Shown piece by piece: positions 20,729-51,597 of a stretch of DNA of 64,000 nucleotides (position 1 is the stretch's first letter; every line of letters starts with the position of its first letter). Source of the stretch: an uncultured Candidatus Peregrinibacteria bacterium (GTDB taxonomy: Bacteria; Patescibacteriota; Gracilibacteria; Peribacterales; Peribacteraceae); the NCBI GenBank assembly GCA_903825315.1, contig CAIKAD010000001.1, positions 265,483 to 329,482 of the forward strand, read 5' to 3'. Under the pieces are notes generated by a model, which did not search any database, was not told where the DNA came from, and saw only the letters and a list, made by a program, of their open reading frames with translations. A program made the translations under genes and the position numbers.

Positions 20729-21169
20729 ATGGCTCAGACAAATGTCACGATCGGCGAAGTGCTTAAGGCCATTGAAGTCCTGCCTCTTGCCCGGCAGGAG
20801 GAAGTGATTACGACAATCCAGAAGCAAGGTGGCATCACCCCGGAGTACGCGCAGAAGATCGCTGAACTGTTGGAGAATCAGGTACAGGAGGAAGCGGGAT
20901 CCGCGCAAGAATTGGAGGAAGAACGTCGGCTTCTTCGGGAGGCGGCTGGAGACCTTGCGCGTGGTCGCAGGGACGAACAATTGCCTGCTGAAACCCCGGC
21001 TGAGAGCGAAGAGGAGATCCAATTGCAGCAGGAGGCGTACGAAGAGTGGTTCGCCGGTGTGCAGGACATAGAACGGCAGGCTGCCAGGCGGGCGGAAGGG
21101 GCAAAGAGGACCGGTGAAGAAGAGGAAATGGCGCGGTTACGGAATATGCTCAAGGGCGAACAGGCATAG
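20729..21169 (+). CDS. Small acidic helical hypothetical protein
   Basis: 146 aa, E/Q/A-rich, starts 2 nt after the upstream stop. Confidence 0.7.
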   Translation: MAQTNVTIGEVLKAIEVLPLARQEEVITTIQKQGGITPEYAQKIAELLENQVQEEAGSAQELEEERRLLREAAGDLARGRRDEQLPAETPAESEEEIQLQQEAYEEWFAGVQDIERQAARRAEGAKRTGEEEEMARLRNMLKGEQA

Positions 21170-21200
21170 GTTTACCTCAACAGAAAGGGCTCAAACCGAA

Positions 21201-21229
21201 TTGCAGAATACTGTTAAATTTGGTATACT
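21201..21229 (+). promoter_or_regulatory. Sigma-70 promoter
   Basis: TTGCAG-17 nt-TATACT with extended TG. Confidence 0.7.
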
Positions 21230-21235
21230 TTACAG

Positions 21236-21676
21236 ATTTGCTCTTTGAAAACTCACTACCCTTGCCCTGCACCTGAGCGAAGCGAATGGTACAGGGCTGG
21301 CAGGGAGAGTGGAGAGGCGACGGAATCCGCCCTCGCTTCTGCACCCTCCCTGCCTCCTCCGCGGCATCTCGACTACCGCGATCCCGAGGCTCCCTCACTG
21401 AGGGACTCTCTCGCTCTCTCTCCACTGAGAGAAAGCACACAAACACAAACGTCCTGCTCCCGGGACAATGGGAGGTCGGTCCCGAACCATCGGGCGCCAC
21501 ATACACACACACGAGCCGCACACTCTCCAAAGTGCGAAGGGTAGGGAGTATGCAGCGACAGTCGCGCTGCACACTGCTCACCTCTTGCAGACCTTTACGG
21601 TCGCGAGGTGTGCGACAAGCCCCGTATCATTCTGTTCTTCCGGTCCTTGAGGGAGAGTAGGGTGATACGGGGCTTT
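21236..21676 (+). ncRNA. Candidate large structured non-coding RNA of unknown family
   Basis: Promoter, boxA-like tgctctttgaaaac, about 10 hairpins with G-U pairs on +, long-range stem 21252-21263/21537-21548, terminal hairpin; no credible ORF. Confidence 0.65.
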
Positions 21677-21680
21677 ATTA

Positions 21681-21792
21681 AGGATGCAGAGGAAACAGAA
21701 GATGCAGAAGAAGCAGAAGAGAAACTGCTCAATGAGTTCTTGAGCGACAGTTCCTCTGCATCCTCTGAAACCTCTGCATCTTCTGTATCCTT
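21681..21792. repeat. 9-mer periodic inverted repeat (GATGCAGAA family)
   Basis: aggatgcagaggaaacagaagatgcagaaga ... tcctctgcatcctctgaaacctctgcatcttctgtatcct. Confidence 0.8.
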
Positions 21793-21830
21793 CCCTTCCC
21801 GAAGGAAATCACTTCCAGTACTCTTTAACC

Positions 21831-22823
21831 ATGCCCCGAGCCAAAGTTGCCATTCTCTACGTTGGCGGGTCCATCGGAATGGTTGTGAACAACAAGACGG
21901 GACGCATTGAGCCGATGGAGTCGCTCAGCCTTATCCATCGCGCTATTCCGGAGATGCAGCGCGAGGTGTCGCTGCAGTTCTATTCATTGGAGAACATCGG
22001 GTCGTCGGAAGTGACGCCGGAGCACTGGGTGGATATTGCGGAGAAGATCCGGGAGATCTACAACCACTTCGACGGCTTTGTAGTGATCCACGGGACCAAC
22101 ACCATGTCCTACACGGCGGCGGCGCTCAGTTTTGCGCTGCAGAACCTTAGCAAGCCCGTGGTGTGTACCGGAGCGCTTTTGCCCATCAACGAACTCGCGG
22201 GCGACGGCCGCATGAATCTCATCTTTGCCATCCGCGCGGCCCAATTGGACCTTGCCGAGGTGTGCGTCAGCTTGGGGCCCAAAGTACTCCGTGGCACGCG
22301 CGCCAAGAAGGTGGAGGATTCGCTCATGCAGACGTTCGATAGTCCGCGCTTTCCCGCATTGGCGGACTTTAGTACCGGTGTGCACCTGCATCCGTGGCGG
22401 CTGGTGCGGCGCAAGCGCACACTCCTTTGCCGGCCGACGTTCGATACCAATGTTATTGTGGTCACGCTCACGCCGGGTATTTCCGATGCCTATCTCCATG
22501 CCGTCCTCGCTGCCAAACCGCACGGCATCGTCCTGCGCGCCTACGGGCCCGGCATGCTGCCGGAGCGGCTCTTCCCGTGGCTGCGGGAGGTTAAACATGC
22601 CGGCATTCCCGTGGTGATCATCTCGCAAACCTTGCGCGGAGCGATTGATCTCCACCGCTTCCGCAAGCAGCTCACCTTGGAGGAATTGGGCATCATCTCC
22701 GGCAAAAACATGAGCTTCGAATGCGCTACTGCCAAACTGATGTGGGCCTTGAAACAGGCGAAGACACCATTGCGTTTGAGGGAATTGATGGAGAGGAGTT
22801 TGGTGGGGGAGCTGGATGAATGA
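21831..22823 (+). CDS. ansA: Type I L-asparaginase family protein
   Basis: ILYVGGSIGM (canonical TGGTI), GFVVIHGTNTMSYTA, KPVVCTG. Confidence 0.85.
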   Translation: MPRAKVAILYVGGSIGMVVNNKTGRIEPMESLSLIHRAIPEMQREVSLQFYSLENIGSSEVTPEHWVDIAEKIREIYNHFDGFVVIHGTNTMSYTAAALSFALQNLSKPVVCTGALLPINELAGDGRMNLIFAIRAAQLDLAEVCVSLGPKVLRGTRAKKVEDSLMQTFDSPRFPALADFSTGVHLHPWRLVRRKRTLLCRPTFDTNVIVVTLTPGISDAYLHAVLAAKPHGIVLRAYGPGMLPERLFPWLREVKHAGIPVVIISQTLRGAIDLHRFRKQLTLEELGIISGKNMSFECATAKLMWALKQAKTPLRLRELMERSLVGELDE

Positions 22824-29537: not shown

Positions 29538-29939
29538 ATGGCTCGCCGCCGACATCTCTCCCGCATCGCCGTCATGCAAGCGCTATTCGAGCGCGAAAAA
29601 CATGAACGTACGGAGCCGCAGGCATCGCTTGAGCGCAATGCCGAGGAACTGGGTGAGGTGGATACGGAGTTTGCCGCAGTCTTGCTCAAGGGAGTTCTGT
29701 CCCGCGAGGGCGAAGTAAAGGCTGCCGTGCAGGAGCATGCGCCACAGTGGCCCATGGAGCGGATGGATCCCATTTCTCGTTGTATCCTGCTCATCGGCGC
29801 CTACGAACTTCTCTTTGCGAACGATGCCCCGCCGGCAGTGGTCATGAATGAAGCTATCGAGATTGCCAAGGAGTATGGGACCGACGAGGGTGGGAAGTTC
29901 GTGAACGGAGTGTTGAATGCGATTGCCCATCGGAAGTAG
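29538..29939 (+). CDS. nusB: Transcription antitermination factor NusB
   Basis: RRHLSRIAVMQAL, APQWPMERM, NEAIEIAKEYG, KFVNGVL. Confidence 0.95.
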   Translation: MARRRHLSRIAVMQALFEREKHERTEPQASLERNAEELGEVDTEFAAVLLKGVLSREGEVKAAVQEHAPQWPMERMDPISRCILLIGAYELLFANDAPPAVVMNEAIEIAKEYGTDEGGKFVNGVLNAIAHRK

Positions 29940-50960: not shown

Positions 50961-51597
50961 GGCAAATCCTTTCTTTGGATGCCAAGGATTTCTTCCACAC
51001 TACTACAAACCAACCATTGGCCGCAGCTGTGAAAGAACTAATAGTGATTATTACATATTGAATAACTTATGTCAATAATTGAGGATTGGCTAACCAAAGC
51101 CAATAAGAGAGGTGAGGGGACGGCACTATCTCTTTCCAAGCATCACATGTTCTAGAGTGATCATGGTCCACAAATTCGATGTAGGTTGTCACATCAATAA
51201 AGCTCAATAGTCGGCAACCGGAGCGGCGAATGTAACATTCGCTGAGGGCGCTGGGGGGGGGCTATGGTAAAAAGCCAATTCAACAATGTCTATATCGTTC
51301 TCTCTATGTATTAAAGATGACTTGTAGTTCCCCACGGGTCCTGTCTTCCTATATGTGAATTGAAGATGGAATCTTAAGAGGGCCTGTTCCGCGCTTGGGG
51401 AAACAGGATGCTTGGGGGATTCTGTCAAAGAACAGCAACTTACAGTGCTAATATAGATAACTGTCAATTATCATGACGGGAAGCGGAACAGGTCATTGCT
51501 TGTTTGCAGCTGTTCCCTCCACTACCATCCGTCCGGCTCCGTCCCTGACATCACCGGGACTTCGCCGGGACACGCCCGATTCCCCCGCATACAAGCC

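What the first reader, a model, noticed from the sequence alone, without database searches (positions are those of the whole stretch)
21201..21676. Orphan ~440-nt highly structured RNA with its own promoter, boxA-like site, pseudoknot and CA-rich linkers
Seen: TTGCAG-17-TATACT promoter; tgctctttgaaaac (rRNA-leader boxA-like) at 21239; a closing stem ctcactaccctt (21252) / aagggtagggag (21537) around a ~300-nt domain with hairpins at 21264-21297, 21299-21354, 21360-21380, 21385-21413, 21413-21436, 21478-21498 and 21517-21536; a possible H-type pseudoknot (gtcc/ggac with ctccc/gggag, 21451-21474); unpaired acacaaacacaaac and acatacacacacac linkers; then hairpins 21551-21571, 21579-21610 and a long terminal hairpin 21617-21676 ending in ttt. 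Stems contain many G-U pairs on + that would be A-C on minus, which indicates a plus-strand RNA. No tmRNA, RNase P, SRP, rRNA or intron hallmark was recognised, and overlapping ORFs look spurious. Inference: an undescribed large ncRNA, possibly Nus-antiterminated.
Basis: partly seen in the sequence, partly recalled or inferred. Interest (0 to 1): 0.85.

Follow-up and report, generated by a model that had tools for sequence, protein, structure and literature searches.

The report
New large structured RNA in Peribacteria
This stretch is a real, free-standing gene for a roughly 440-base, intricately folded non-coding RNA that matches no known RNA family, is kept in one copy across a whole family of ultra-small groundwater bacteria, and begins with the same leader signal as their ribosomal RNA.

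Summary
Window 21235-21676 (+) is an independent gene for a structured non-coding RNA.

- **No known family.** No Rfam family matches it or 20 divergent homologues.
- **Distribution.** A core model finds exactly one copy per genome in 59 of 151 genomes of the same family. Record titles name these Peribacteria or Peribacteraceae. It finds 0 of 135 genomes in other families of the class. 4 of 5 "no-hit" family genomes still carry a divergent copy beside gmk.
- **Structure.** On a structure-blind alignment of 26 copies, 91.8% of cells pair and 30 of 66 pairs change on both sides; 0 of 500 shuffles reach this.
Compensatory changes support the closing stem and the H-type pseudoknot.
- **What I add.** A second pseudoknot and a covarying loop-loop contact between two hairpins.
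- **Leader.** The 5' leader repeats the conserved 16S-leader motif of this family, and NusB is encoded nearby.
- **Not coding.** Only 20% of indels are multiples of three.
- **Expression.** The evidence is weak: contigs from two metatranscriptomes.

Function is unknown. My best guess is a stable trans-acting RNA, probably a protein-binding scaffold, made with rRNA-like Nus protection.

The parts
21201..21229 (+). Promoter: -35 TTGCAG (21201-21206), 17-nt spacer, TG (21221-21222), -10 TATACT (21224-21229)
   Evidence: Read. TTG and TAnAnT are invariant columns in 11 homologues. The same boxes sit before all 26 copies. The simple scan did not call it.
21235..21251 (+). Single-stranded 5' leader GATTTGCTCTTTGAAAA, boxA-like; the transcript probably starts at about 21235
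   Evidence: Near-invariant in 26 copies. The same core (GCTC[C/A]TTCACA) lies in 16S leaders of 5 of 7 family genomes. Similar motifs follow promoters at 13 places in this genome, against 1-2 in shuffles of contig C1.
21252..21263 (+). P1, 5' strand (ctcactaccctt)
   Evidence: Pairs with 21537-21548. Mean duplex energy is -17.8 against -9.9 kcal/mol for shuffled 5' strands, and 9 of 16 variant G-boxes are compensated.
21264..21297 (+). P2: inserted hairpin specific to this genome, not family core
   Evidence: Absent from the other 10 copies. Look-alike hairpins occur elsewhere in relatives. One is inserted at a different place of the RNA in a metatranscriptome contig (table 5c).
21298..21355 (+). 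P3: long hairpin GGCAGGGAG...CTCCCTGCC. Its tip carries large expansions in other genera
   Evidence: 21 pairs, 11 with changes on both sides (helix 1). Expansions of up to about 200 nt are seen.
21360..21380 (+). P4 hairpin; loop holds CGACT (21370-21374)
   Evidence: Folded. The loop motif nGACn is conserved. It covaries with the P8 loop.
21391..21405 (+). P5 hairpin TCCCTCA/TGAGGGA
   Evidence: 7 pairs, 91% paired, mostly invariant, 1 pair with changes on both sides (helix 3).
21413..21436 (+). P5b: variable hairpin
   Evidence: Folded. Length and sequence vary, or it is missing, in other copies.
21437..21450 (+). CA linker 1 (acacaaacacaaac)
   Evidence: An A/C-only stretch conserved in all 26 copies.
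21451..21474 (+). Pseudoknot A: GTCC (21451-21454) with GGAC (21463-21466); CTCCC (21457-21461) with GGGAG (21470-21474)
   Evidence: Stem 2 has 5 of 5 pairs with changes on both sides (helix 4). A two-stem pseudoknot is found in 28 of 31 copies, and in 22 of these at most 5 of 100 shuffles reach the score. This copy was read by eye.
21478..21498 (+). P7 hairpin (CCCGA...TCGGG); optional module
   Evidence: helix 5. Absent from 8 of 26 copies.
21499..21512 (+). CA linker 2 (acatacacacacac)
   Evidence: Alternate A columns are invariant in 26 copies.
21513..21536 (+). Pseudoknot B (new here): GAG (21513-21515) with CTC (21523-21525); CGCAC (21517-21521) with GTGCG (21532-21536)
   Evidence: Found in 53 of 56 copies; 0-6 of 100 shuffles reach the score. 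The middle pair of stem 1 reads AU 34, GC 11, CG 1, UA 1 on an alignment whose model did not contain that stem.
21537..21548 (+). G-box aagggtagggag = P1, 3' strand; the most conserved block
   Evidence: Invariant in the 26 copies. Where it varies, the 5' strand compensates in 9 of 16.
21549..21573 (+). P8 hairpin; loop holds AGTCG (21560-21564)
   Evidence: 7 of 7 pairs change on both sides and 96% are paired (helix 3; that alignment was fitted to this helix). On the structure-blind alignment, 4 of 8 pairs change on both sides (helix 8).
21575..21610 (+). P9 hairpin (GCTCACCTC.../...GAGGTGTGC); missing in one clade
   Evidence: Folded. GCTCAC/GTGCGC changes to GCTTAC/GTAAGC in other copies. 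Absent where the terminator follows directly.
21617..21676 (+). Intrinsic terminator: long G+C-rich hairpin, then a T run
   Evidence: 10 base pairs, 6 with changes on both sides (helix 9). All 26 copies end in GGGG(C/T)TTT. Not called by the simple scan.

Best explanation
**What it is.** Window 21235-21676 (+) is a single-copy, independently transcribed gene for a large structured non-coding RNA. It is 442 nt here and about 350-620 nt in relatives. It defines a new RNA family confined, as far as searched, to one family of CPR bacteria whose records are titled Peribacteria or Peribacteraceae.

**How it most likely works** (steps marked shown or inferred):

1. *Sequence and conservation shown, activity inferred.* It is transcribed from its own TTG-N17-TGnTAnAnT promoter and ends at its own intrinsic terminator.
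2. *Inferred.* Its first ~15 nt form a boxA-type site, the same motif as in this family's 16S leader. This site would load NusB-S10 and the other Nus factors onto RNA polymerase. The long untranslated transcript, with its C/A-rich unpaired linkers, would then escape Rho and fold in order, as rRNA does.
3. *Pairings shown by covariation, 3D inferred.* The RNA folds into a compact particle.
   - P1 joins a C-rich 5' strand to the invariant G-box and encloses P3, P4, P5 and two H-type pseudoknots.
   - Each pseudoknot is preceded by an A/C-only linker.
   - A 5-bp loop-loop contact ties P4, inside P1, to P8, outside it.
   - Variable hairpins are inserted at helix tips.
4. *Inferred.* It acts in trans as a stable housekeeping RNA.

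**My split for step 4:**
- Scaffold or subunit of a protein complex, or a decoy that holds a protein: about 0.55.
- RNA-only assembly or conformational switch: about 0.12.
- Ribozyme: about 0.1.
- Other: the rest.
For: - **Not a known family.**
  - There is no Rfam match at gathering thresholds or at E<=10, nor in 20 divergent loci.
  - RNase P, tmRNA and 5S lie elsewhere.
- **Conserved and single-copy.**
  - BLASTN finds it in 7 of 7 genus genomes and 12 of 24 family genomes.
  - The core model finds one hit per genome in 59 of 151 family genomes and 36 of 84 genera.
  - It finds 0 of 135 genomes in other families.
  - 4 of 5 no-hit genomes have a divergent copy.
  - Of the 40 genome-collection hits to an 18-mer, the 18 that carry the other motifs of the RNA are all titled Peribacteria, Peregrinibacteria or Patescibacteria.
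- **Structure.**
  - Overall: 91.8% of cells pair against about 50% when partners are slid. 30 of 66 pairs change on both sides, and 0 of 500 shuffles reach this.
  - P8: 7 of 7 pairs covary.
  - Pseudoknot B: found in 53 of 56 copies.
  - Pseudoknot A: found in 28 of 31 copies.
  - P1: compensations in 9 of 16 variants.
  - P4-P8 contact: the flanking pair is Watson-Crick in 39 of 54 (AU 16, GC 17, UA 6), against a permutation mean of 17.4, with 0 of 2000 permutations reaching it.
- **Independent unit.**
  - The RNA cassette is inverted between the same two flanking genes in 6-7 of 58 loci.
  - The downstream asparaginase-like gene has its own -10 box just before its ATG in several genomes.
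- **Not coding.** 1088 of 5409 indel runs (20%) are multiples of three, and there is no Pfam hit.
- **boxA reading.**
  - The same motif is in 16S leaders of 5 of 7 family genomes.
  - NusB is present.
- **Expression hint.** Two metatranscriptomes from different studies hold contigs of 263 and 220 nt inside the RNA, and none on the flanking genes.
- **Not phage-borne.** There are no hits in viral contigs or phage records.
Against: - **No direct transcript evidence.**
  - The metatranscriptome data are assembled contigs of low depth (2.8 and 8).
  - They cannot show ends, strand or level, and DNA carry-over is not excluded.
- **Consensus scan.** It called no promoter and did not call the terminator.
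- **Minus strand.** It also folds far better than shuffles.
- **Statistics.**
  - The sequences are related, so shuffle statistics overstate significance.
  - The alignment was fitted to P8.
  - My pseudoknot and loop-contact scripts search for pairing, although shuffles and permutations were run as controls.
- **Conserved strands with no covariation.**
  - The base of P3, P5 and the G-box are nearly invariant, so they give little or no covariation.
  - The G-box can also be drawn pairing with the leader or with 21574-21579 (helix 7).
- **Untested steps.** Nus binding, stability, partners and function are all untested. No neighbouring gene points to a function.
Confidence: 0.85

Rival explanations
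1. It is a cis-acting leader (riboswitch or attenuator) that controls the downstream asparaginase-like gene through its terminator.
For: - The asparaginase-like gene lies directly downstream on the same strand here and in 29 of 58 other loci.
- The RNA ends in a terminator only about 150 nt before that gene, and as little as about 15 nt in one genome.
Against: - In 6 loci the same gene lies upstream and divergent, and in 22 no such gene was found within the flank held, which was often only 750 nt.
- The gene has its own -10 box 6-7 nt before the ATG in several genomes.
- I found no conserved alternative pairing that would disrupt the terminator.
- 350-620 nt with two pseudoknots is far larger than known leaders of this type.
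Confidence: 0.04
2. It is a very divergent member of a known housekeeping RNA (SRP RNA, 6S RNA, RNase P RNA or tmRNA) that models fail to recognise.
For: - SRP RNA and 6S RNA are not found anywhere in this 99.6% complete genome.
- The RNA is single-copy, conserved and has a strong-looking promoter, like housekeeping RNAs.
Against: - RNase P RNA (121.5 bits) and tmRNA (96.5 bits) are found elsewhere.
- No SRP, 6S, RNase P or tmRNA model touches this region even at E<=10.
- The genome has no Ffh M domain and no SRP54-type GTPase.
- SRP RNA and these proteins are also missing from 41 genomes across the class, including families that lack this RNA.
- A paper states that SRP subunits are absent in many CPR bacteria (passage read in PMC8080830).
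- A P1-closed multi-helix fold with two pseudoknots is unlike the single long irregular hairpin of 6S, as I recall it.
Confidence: 0.04
3. It is a decoy (sponge) RNA. Its repeated motifs are two A/C-only linkers and several GGGAG or GGAGGG blocks that resemble ribosome-binding sites. These would titrate a global RNA-binding protein or the small ribosomal subunit, and the fold only displays them.
For: - The two linkers are conserved as A/C-only stretches in all 26 copies.
- G-rich blocks recur.
- Strong promoter-like boxes suggest abundance.
Against: - Most G-rich blocks are base-paired in covarying or conserved helices rather than displayed.
- There are only two linkers.
- The tertiary contacts (pseudoknots, loop-loop pair) go beyond what known decoy RNAs need.
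- No candidate binding protein was identified.
- A/C-only linkers may simply be spacers that cannot mispair.
Confidence: 0.12
4. It is not a functional RNA gene. It is instead either a cluster of repeats and palindromes left by mobile elements, or a fast-evolving small-protein gene.
For: - A palindromic repeat with 46 further matches in the genome starts right after the terminator.
- One hairpin inside the RNA (21264-21297) is an inserted repeat-like element.
- Open frames of about 100 codons exist on both strands in most copies.
Against: - The core 21235-21676 is single-copy in the genome.
- It keeps its position beside gmk in 53 of 58 loci.
- It keeps promoter, leader, helices and terminator across at least 36 genera.
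- Helices covary.
- Only 20% of indels are multiples of three.
- No Pfam match.
- Open frames occur equally on both strands, as expected from composition.
Confidence: 0.02

Closest known systems
Orphan large structured bacterial ncRNAs (OLE, ROOL, GOLLD, raiA; names and properties recalled, and I did not check that each has a model in the Rfam copy searched)
   Same: - Several hundred nucleotides long, with its own promoter and terminator.
- Many covarying helices and pseudoknots.
- A conserved core with variable peripheral hairpins.
- Lineage-restricted, with no function evident from neighbours.
   Different: - No Rfam model matches.
- It is found only in one CPR family.
- It is chromosomal, single-copy and absent from phage collections, whereas GOLLD and ROOL are often phage- or plasmid-linked (recalled).
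- It carries an rRNA-type leader motif, which I do not recall for those RNAs.
rRNA operon leader with boxA (Nus-factor antitermination complex)
   Same: - It has the same short motif as this family's own 16S leader (GCTC[C/A/T]TT[C/G]A[C/A]A).
- The motif sits just after a promoter, ahead of a long, structured, untranslated RNA.
- NusB is encoded in the genome.
   Different: - The product is not rRNA: no SSU or LSU model matches, and 16S, 23S and 5S lie elsewhere.
- The motif lies at the very 5' end of the transcript rather than 150-250 nt ahead of a processed mature RNA.
- Binding and antitermination are untested.
tmRNA
   Same: - Similar size.
- A string of H-type pseudoknots separated by short linkers.
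- Single-copy, with a conserved core and variable helices.
   Different: - No tRNA-like domain or tag reading frame: ARAGORN finds no tmRNA in the window and the tmRNA model does not match here.
- The genome's real tmRNA is at C1:210878-211293.
RNase P RNA (bacterial type A)
   Same: - Similar size.
- A long-range closing helix, pseudoknot-type tertiary pairs, loop-helix contacts and lineage-specific expansion hairpins.
   Different: - No match to RNase P models.
- The genome's RNase P RNA is at C5:147829-148207, at 121.5 bits.
- No shared conserved-region sequences were detected.

Membership tests
Any Rfam 15 family (4227 models) | Covariance-model score at or above the family's gathering threshold | tested here: not met
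   Only two tRNAs pass in the 64-kb window. At E<=10 over 20900-22000 the best matches are microRNA-precursor models at 13-29 bits against thresholds of 39-168. There are no non-tRNA hits of note in 20 homologous loci.
boxA / Nus-factor antitermination site | Short conserved motif shared with the organism's own rRNA leaders | tested here: met
   The ncRNA leader is GATTTGCTCTTTGAAAAC, with variants such as GCTCATTCACAAC. The 16S leaders of G000, G003, G004, G005 and G008 hold [T/A/G]GCTC[C/A]TTCACAGCATCGTG, which is 5 of 7 family genomes examined.
boxA / Nus-factor antitermination site | Position in the transcribed leader, downstream of a promoter and ahead of a long untranslated RNA | tested here: met
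   The motif starts 8 nt after the -10 box and in the same place in all 26 copies.
boxA / Nus-factor antitermination site | NusB (with S10) present to bind it | tested here: met
   NusB (PF01029, 109 bits) lies at window 29559-29927. S10 was not looked for.
boxA / Nus-factor antitermination site | NusB-S10 binding and Rho-resistant transcription | not testable with these tools
   Needs a binding assay and in vivo or in vitro termination assays.
tmRNA | tRNA-like acceptor/T-arm domain and an internal tag-peptide frame | tested here: not met
   ARAGORN reports no tmRNA in the window. RF00023 matches elsewhere at 96.5 bits and not here.
Bacterial SRP RNA (4.5S or large type) | Domain IV hairpin recognised by the SRP models, and a partner Ffh protein | tested here: not met
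   RF00169 and RF01854 have no match in the genome, even at E<=10. PF02978 and PF00448 are absent. The motif scan found only two spurious frames.
RNase P RNA | Match to a bacterial RNase P model (conserved core regions) | tested here: not met
   No match here. The true gene is at C5:147829-148207.
6S RNA | About 185 nt, one long irregular hairpin with a central bubble (recalled); match to RF00013 | tested here: not met
   RF00013 has no match in the genome or this region. The fold is a multi-helix domain with pseudoknots.
Cis-regulatory leader or riboswitch | Fixed position and orientation ahead of the regulated gene | tested here: not met
   The RNA cassette is inverted relative to both flanking genes in 6-7 of 58 loci.

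The most novel reading that the evidence does not exclude
This is a new class of large housekeeping RNA, on a par with RNase P RNA or tmRNA in structural complexity but invented within one CPR lineage. It would be made like ribosomal RNA, with a boxA leader and Nus-assisted, Rho-protected folding. It would work as the RNA core of an unknown ribonucleoprotein, as a ribozyme, or as a self-assembling RNA particle.

One feature could allow a conformational switch or strand-swapped dimers. P1 and the base of P3 use almost the same two strands: CTCaCTACC / GGTAGGGAG and GGCAGGGAG / CTCCCTGCC.
Probability: 0.3. Interest if true: 0.9.

Novelty: categorically new. Interest (0 to 1): 0.78.

Why it matters
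- **Rarity.** As I recall, only about a dozen classes of large bacterial non-coding RNA (over 300 nt) with complex tertiary structure are known. Each has either proved to be a ribozyme or RNP core or remains an open problem.
- **Organism.** I know of none described from CPR/Patescibacteria. These are uncultured, ultra-small, reduced-genome bacteria whose biology is largely inferred from protein genes. My literature searches found nothing on it.
- **What this RNA offers.**
  - It is kept in one copy, at one chromosomal place, across dozens of genera with 1-1.5 Mb genomes. That argues for an important function.
  - It comes with a concrete structural model: two pseudoknots and a covarying loop-loop contact.
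  - Natural length variants run from a minimal form of about 270 nt by eye in G011 to 622 nt, the longest extracted copy. This range suits structure determination.
- **Testable biogenesis.** If the rRNA-type leader works as proposed, it would be a clear case of Nus-factor antitermination used for a non-ribosomal stable RNA.
- **Practical use.** The family model lets annotators stop calling spurious ORFs here.

Tried and rejected
- **SRP RNA idea.** The genome lacks any detectable SRP RNA, so I asked whether this RNA replaces it.
  - I rejected the idea because Ffh and FtsY are missing too.
  - The whole class sample lacks them: 0 of 41 genomes have the RNA model, and only weak P-loop hits appear for the GTPase. 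Only one family has this RNA.
- **Leader pairing with the G-box.** RNAalifold proposed 21239-21246 with 21536-21543.
  - Both strands are near-invariant.
  - The 6 of 25 copies with a changed leader base are not compensated.
  - P1 explains the G-box better, so I did not adopt this helix.
- **Leader GCTC pairing with GAGC at 21513.** This came. I rejected it because GAG covaries with the nearby CTC instead.
- **Local pairing of GGGAG (21544-21548) with 21574-21579.** It shows only one-sided G-C/G-U changes (helix 7). It stays possible as an alternative or extension, and I did not resolve it.
- **Simple promoter and terminator scan.** It supported neither signal here. I rely on conservation instead.
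- **Phage or mobile origin.** There were no matches in viral contigs or phage records.
- **Coding.** No Pfam family matched the overlapping ORFs, and the indel pattern is non-coding.
- **Sequencing runs.** Runs X4 and X5 (DNA) hold only parts or relatives of the stretch. I draw no habitat conclusion from them. I did not lay runs X1, X2, X6 and X8.
- **Literature.** I found nothing on this RNA.
  - Searches were 'Peribacteria'+'RNA' (34 papers, listing seen), 'Peregrinibacteria'+'noncoding RNA' (0), 'candidate phyla radiation'+'structured RNA' (2 hold the terms, 1 listed, unrelated) and 'Patescibacteria'+'ncRNA'+'covariation' (1, unrelated).
  - In PMC4736985 I read only the passages found for RNA, SRP and secretion terms. 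None concerns this RNA.
  - Supplementary files were not consulted and could list ncRNA predictions.
- **Partner proteins.** I attempted no complex prediction or phylogenetic profiling.
Full report
**1. What is in the sequence**

The region lies in a 661-nt gap between two + strand ORFs. Upstream is a 146-aa glutamate-rich ORF ending at 21169. Downstream is an asparaginase-family gene starting at 21831.

- TTGCAG, a 17-nt spacer and TATACT, with a TG two bases before the -10 box.
- A leader GATTTGCTCTTTGAAAAC.
- A C-rich strand at 21252-21263 and its complement aagggtagggag at 21537-21548.
- A series of hairpins and two A/C-only linkers.
- A 60-nt terminal hairpin followed by a T run.

The + strand folds at -213.8 kcal/mol, z = -8.5. 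The - strand gives z = -6.9, so energy alone does not pick the strand.

**2. It matches no known RNA**

- Rfam 15 at gathering thresholds finds only two tRNAs in the whole window.
- At E<=10 the region gives only weak microRNA-precursor hits far below threshold.
- ARAGORN finds no tmRNA in the window.
- The genome is 1.29 Mb in 5 contigs and 99.6% complete. Its other stable RNAs lie elsewhere:

| RNA | Place |
|---|---|
| RNase P RNA | C5:147829 |
| tmRNA | C1:210878 |
| 5S | C1:580 |
| 16S | C5:103574 |
| 23S | C5:137-3289 |

- 6S and both bacterial SRP RNA models find nothing, the small SRP model even at E<=10.

**3. It is a conserved, single-copy gene of one bacterial family**

- Within its own genome the core is unique. 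Only the stretch just after the terminator (about 21670-21800) is repeated, with 46 further matches.
- BLASTN finds collinear homologues in 7 of 7 genomes of the genus and 12 of 24 of the family. It finds 0 of 16 in other families of the class.
- An 18-mer pattern scan of the genome collection returned 40 loci.
  - The 18 that carry the other motifs of the RNA are all titled Peribacteria, Peribacteraceae, Peregrinibacteria or Patescibacteria.
  - The other 22 are chance matches in unrelated taxa.
- A metagenome scan added 9 true loci and 5 chance ones.
- This gave 26 distinct full-length copies of 359-603 nt.
- A covariance model of the 3' core (R1) gave these results:

| Sample | Genomes with a hit |
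|---|---|
| Own family | 59 of 151, in 36 of 84 genera, exactly one hit each |
| Own family, class-wide sample | 11 of 15 |
| Other families of the class | 0 of 135 |

- 4 of 5 family genomes without a model hit nevertheless carry a recognisable, shorter copy at the same chromosomal place. One of them is about 270 nt.
- None of 20 divergent homologues matches any Rfam family.
- No copy was found in viral contigs or phage records.

**4. Gene context**

I examined 58 loci from other genomes.
- Guanylate kinase is adjacent in 53: divergent upstream in 46, and downstream on the same strand in 7.
- The asparaginase-like gene is adjacent in 36: downstream on the same strand in 29, and upstream divergent in 6. 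Many loci held only 750-nt flanks.
- The 6-7 loci with the reversed pattern show the RNA cassette inverted between the same two neighbours. That is what an independent transcription unit allows and a leader does not.
- In several genomes the asparaginase-like gene has its own -10 box 6-7 nt before its ATG.

**5. It is not coding**

- Open frames of about 100 codons occur on both strands in most copies, as expected from the base composition.
- Only 1088 of 5409 pairwise indel runs (20%) are multiples of three.
- Copy length ranges from 347 to 622 nt through insertions at helix tips.
- The three ORFs in this copy have no Pfam family.

**6. Secondary and tertiary structure**

I tested the RNAalifold consensus on the MAFFT alignment of 26 copies, which is not fitted to any structure, after removing one helix (see section 11).
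- It has 66 pairs in 9 helices.
- 91.8% of cells form standard pairs, against 47-56% when partners are slid by 1-3 columns.
- 30 pairs show changes on both sides.
- The covariation score is 0.232, against 0.118 in shuffles (0 of 500 reach it) and 0.07-0.09 when slid.

Helix by helix:

| Element | Evidence |
|---|---|
| P3 | 11 of 21 pairs change on both sides |
| Stem 2 of pseudoknot A | 5 of 5 pairs |
| P8 | 4 of 8 pairs (7 of 7 on the model-fitted alignment of 59 true copies plus 2 spurious rows) |
| Terminator | 6 of 10 pairs |
| P5, P7 and the base of P3 | Conserved in sequence, so they neither support nor contradict |

The closing stem P1:
- Its G-rich strand is invariant in the 26 copies, so I looked at 16 more divergent copies in which it varies.
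- In 9 of these, at most 5 of 40 canonical 5' strands pair with that copy's G-box as well as its own 5' strand does.
- Examples: GGG to CGG is matched by CCC to CCG, and AAGGGTAG to CGTGGTAG is matched by CTACCCTT to CTACCACA.
- Over all 56 copies the mean duplex energy is -17.8 kcal/mol, against -9.9 +/- 3.0 for shuffled 5' strands.

- A constrained search finds a two-stem H-type pseudoknot in 28 of 31 copies that have the downstream P7 motif.
- In 22 of these, at most 5 of 100 shuffles reach the score.
- Both stems take many different sequences, for example GCC/GGC, GTTC/GAAC, CTCCCG/CGGGAG and TTTTTGTG/CACAAGAG.
- My motif filter missed this window's own copy. I read its pairs from the sequence.

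Pseudoknot B, which is new:
- It sits right after the second linker: GAG/CTC plus CGCAC/GTGCG here.
- It is found in 53 of 56 copies, with 0-6 of 100 shuffles reaching the score.
- Stem 1 also occurs as GGG/CCC, GTG/CAC, AAG/CTT and TCGC/GCGA. Stem 2 occurs in more than a dozen forms.
- On the model-made alignment, whose model did not contain stem 1, its middle pair reads AU 34, GC 11, CG 1, UA 1.

The loop-loop contact, also new:
- The P4 loop holds nGACn and the P8 loop holds nGTCn.
- The pair next to the core is Watson-Crick in 39 of 54 copies in three forms (AU 16, GC 17, UA 6), plus 8 GU. The permutation mean is 17.4, and 0 of 2000 permutations reach it.
- The pair on the other side is Watson-Crick in 35 of 54, against a permutation mean of 25.4 (1 of 2000).
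- The one copy with GTT in P8 has AAC in P4.
- This contact ties a hairpin inside P1 to one outside it.

Caveats:
- The sequences are related, so these shuffle figures are not probabilities.
- My scripts look for pairing, though controls were run.

**7. Strand**

Three things point to the + strand:
- The orientation of the promoter boxes.
- The T run after the terminal hairpin.
- Frequent G-U pairs, for example GU 22 / GC 4 and GC 14 / GU 11 at two pairs.

**8. The leader**

- The first ~15 nt are nearly invariant.
- The same core motif lies in a conserved block of the 16S leader, 150-245 nt before mature 16S. It occurs in 5 of 7 family genomes examined (G000, G003, G004, G005, G008) and not in G010 or G011 with my pattern.
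- Some ncRNA copies share an identical 11-mer with a 16S leader.
- In this genome a promoter followed closely by such a motif occurs 13 times, against 1-2 in shuffles of the largest contig. The 13 include the 16S promoter and four paralogous mRNA leaders.
- NusB is encoded at window 29559-29927.
- I therefore read the leader as this lineage's boxA. Its likeness to the general bacterial boxA consensus is from recall. Binding is untested.

**9. Expression**

- Two metatranscriptomes from different studies hold contigs lying wholly inside the RNA.
  - One is 263 nt, spans 21357-21619 and has 1 difference.
  - The other is 220 nt, spans 21363-21545 and has a 36-nt hairpin inserted at 21395.
- Neither run has a contig on the flanking genes.
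- These are low-depth contigs and DNA carry-over is possible, so this is only a hint.

**10. What it most likely is and does**

The anatomy is that of stable, trans-acting RNAs such as RNase P RNA or tmRNA:
- A conserved core with expansion hairpins at helix tips.
- Invariant strands and covarying tertiary contacts.
- One copy per genome at a fixed locus, with strong-looking promoter boxes and its own terminator.

I propose that it is made like rRNA, with Nus factors loaded at the leader protecting an untranslated transcript with C/A-rich linkers from Rho. It would then fold into a compact particle and work as a scaffold or subunit of a protein complex, or as a protein decoy.

A ribozyme or an RNA-only assembly is not excluded. 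P1 and the base of P3 use almost the same pair of strands. That would permit an alternative fold or strand exchange between molecules. This is speculation.

**11. Things that did not hold**

- The SRP-replacement idea.
- Pairing of the leader with the G-box or with GAGC.
- The cis-leader reading.
- Coding, and phage origin.

Details are under Tried and rejected.

Noticed in passing
window 21680-21797: Directly after the terminator lies a purine-rich palindromic element (GGATGCAGAGGAAACAGAAG... and its complement). It has 46 further matches on both strands across all five contigs of the genome. It looks like a REP- or MITE-like intergenic repeat.
   Followed up: partly
window 21264-21297; also G007:C3, G023:C131, G006:C18, G024:C25 (loci L029, L030, L033): - The hairpin with a GAGCGAAGCGA-type loop is an insertion present only in this genome's copy of the RNA.
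- Near-identical hairpins occur at unrelated places in relatives.
- About 15 similar hairpins occur in this genome.
- One is inserted at a different place of the RNA (21395) in a soil metatranscriptome contig.
- Together these suggest a small mobile hairpin module.
   Followed up: partly
whole genome G000 and 40 class-level relatives: The SRP pathway is not detectable.
- **SRP RNA.** None in the own genome, even at E<=10, and 0 of 41 genomes when relatives are included.
- **Ffh and FtsY.** No Ffh M domain and no SRP54-type GTPase in the own genome. Relatives give only weak P-loop hits.
- **Controls.** The RNA-model controls ring in 12-13 of 14 genomes and the protein-family controls in 14 of 14.
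- **Literature.** One paper says SRP subunits are absent in many CPR bacteria (passage in PMC8080830).
   Followed up: partly
window about 13964 (+) = C1:279446; also C2:128887 (+), C2:191690 (+), C2:246302 (-): Four paralogous loci share a promoter, a boxA-like TGTTC[T/C]TT[G/C]AGA, then GCATCG[T/G]CAAGGTTT and a conserved hairpin (about 170 nt in all) ahead of coding sequence. This looks like a repeated structured mRNA leader.
   Followed up: partly
window 50961-51475 (- strand): This is a 500-nt gap with two strong promoter-like sites (TTGACA...), each followed by a GTTCTTT[G/C]ACAG leader. There is no Rfam match at E<=1 and no Pfam family for the 200-aa ORF downstream. It may hold another untranslated RNA.
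   Followed up: partly
G000 C5:137-3289 (-) and C5:103574-105053 (+): 16S and 23S are unlinked, about 100 kb apart. The 23S match covers model positions 15-2044 in 2912 nt, so it holds roughly 880 nt of insertions, and it runs into the contig end.
   Followed up: no
loci L023, L052, L066, L069 and others, just after the RNA terminator: The asparaginase-like gene has a TATAAT- or TATACT-type box 6-7 nt before its ATG in several genomes. This suggests a leaderless mRNA.
   Followed up: no
loci L098, L073, L074, L042, L048, L114, L121: In these 7 of 58 loci the RNA gene is inverted relative to guanylate kinase. In 6 of them the asparaginase-like gene is seen on the other side. So the inversion covers just the RNA cassette.
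   Followed up: yes
loci L127, L128, L131, L134, L136, L139, L143 (genomes G102, G160, G136, G093, G041, G114, G053): In these more distant genera the tip of P3 carries a large conserved extension. It is closed by GAGAAGTGAC...GTCACTTCTC and contains further hairpins, taking the RNA to 500-620 nt. I did not model this extra domain.
   Followed up: no
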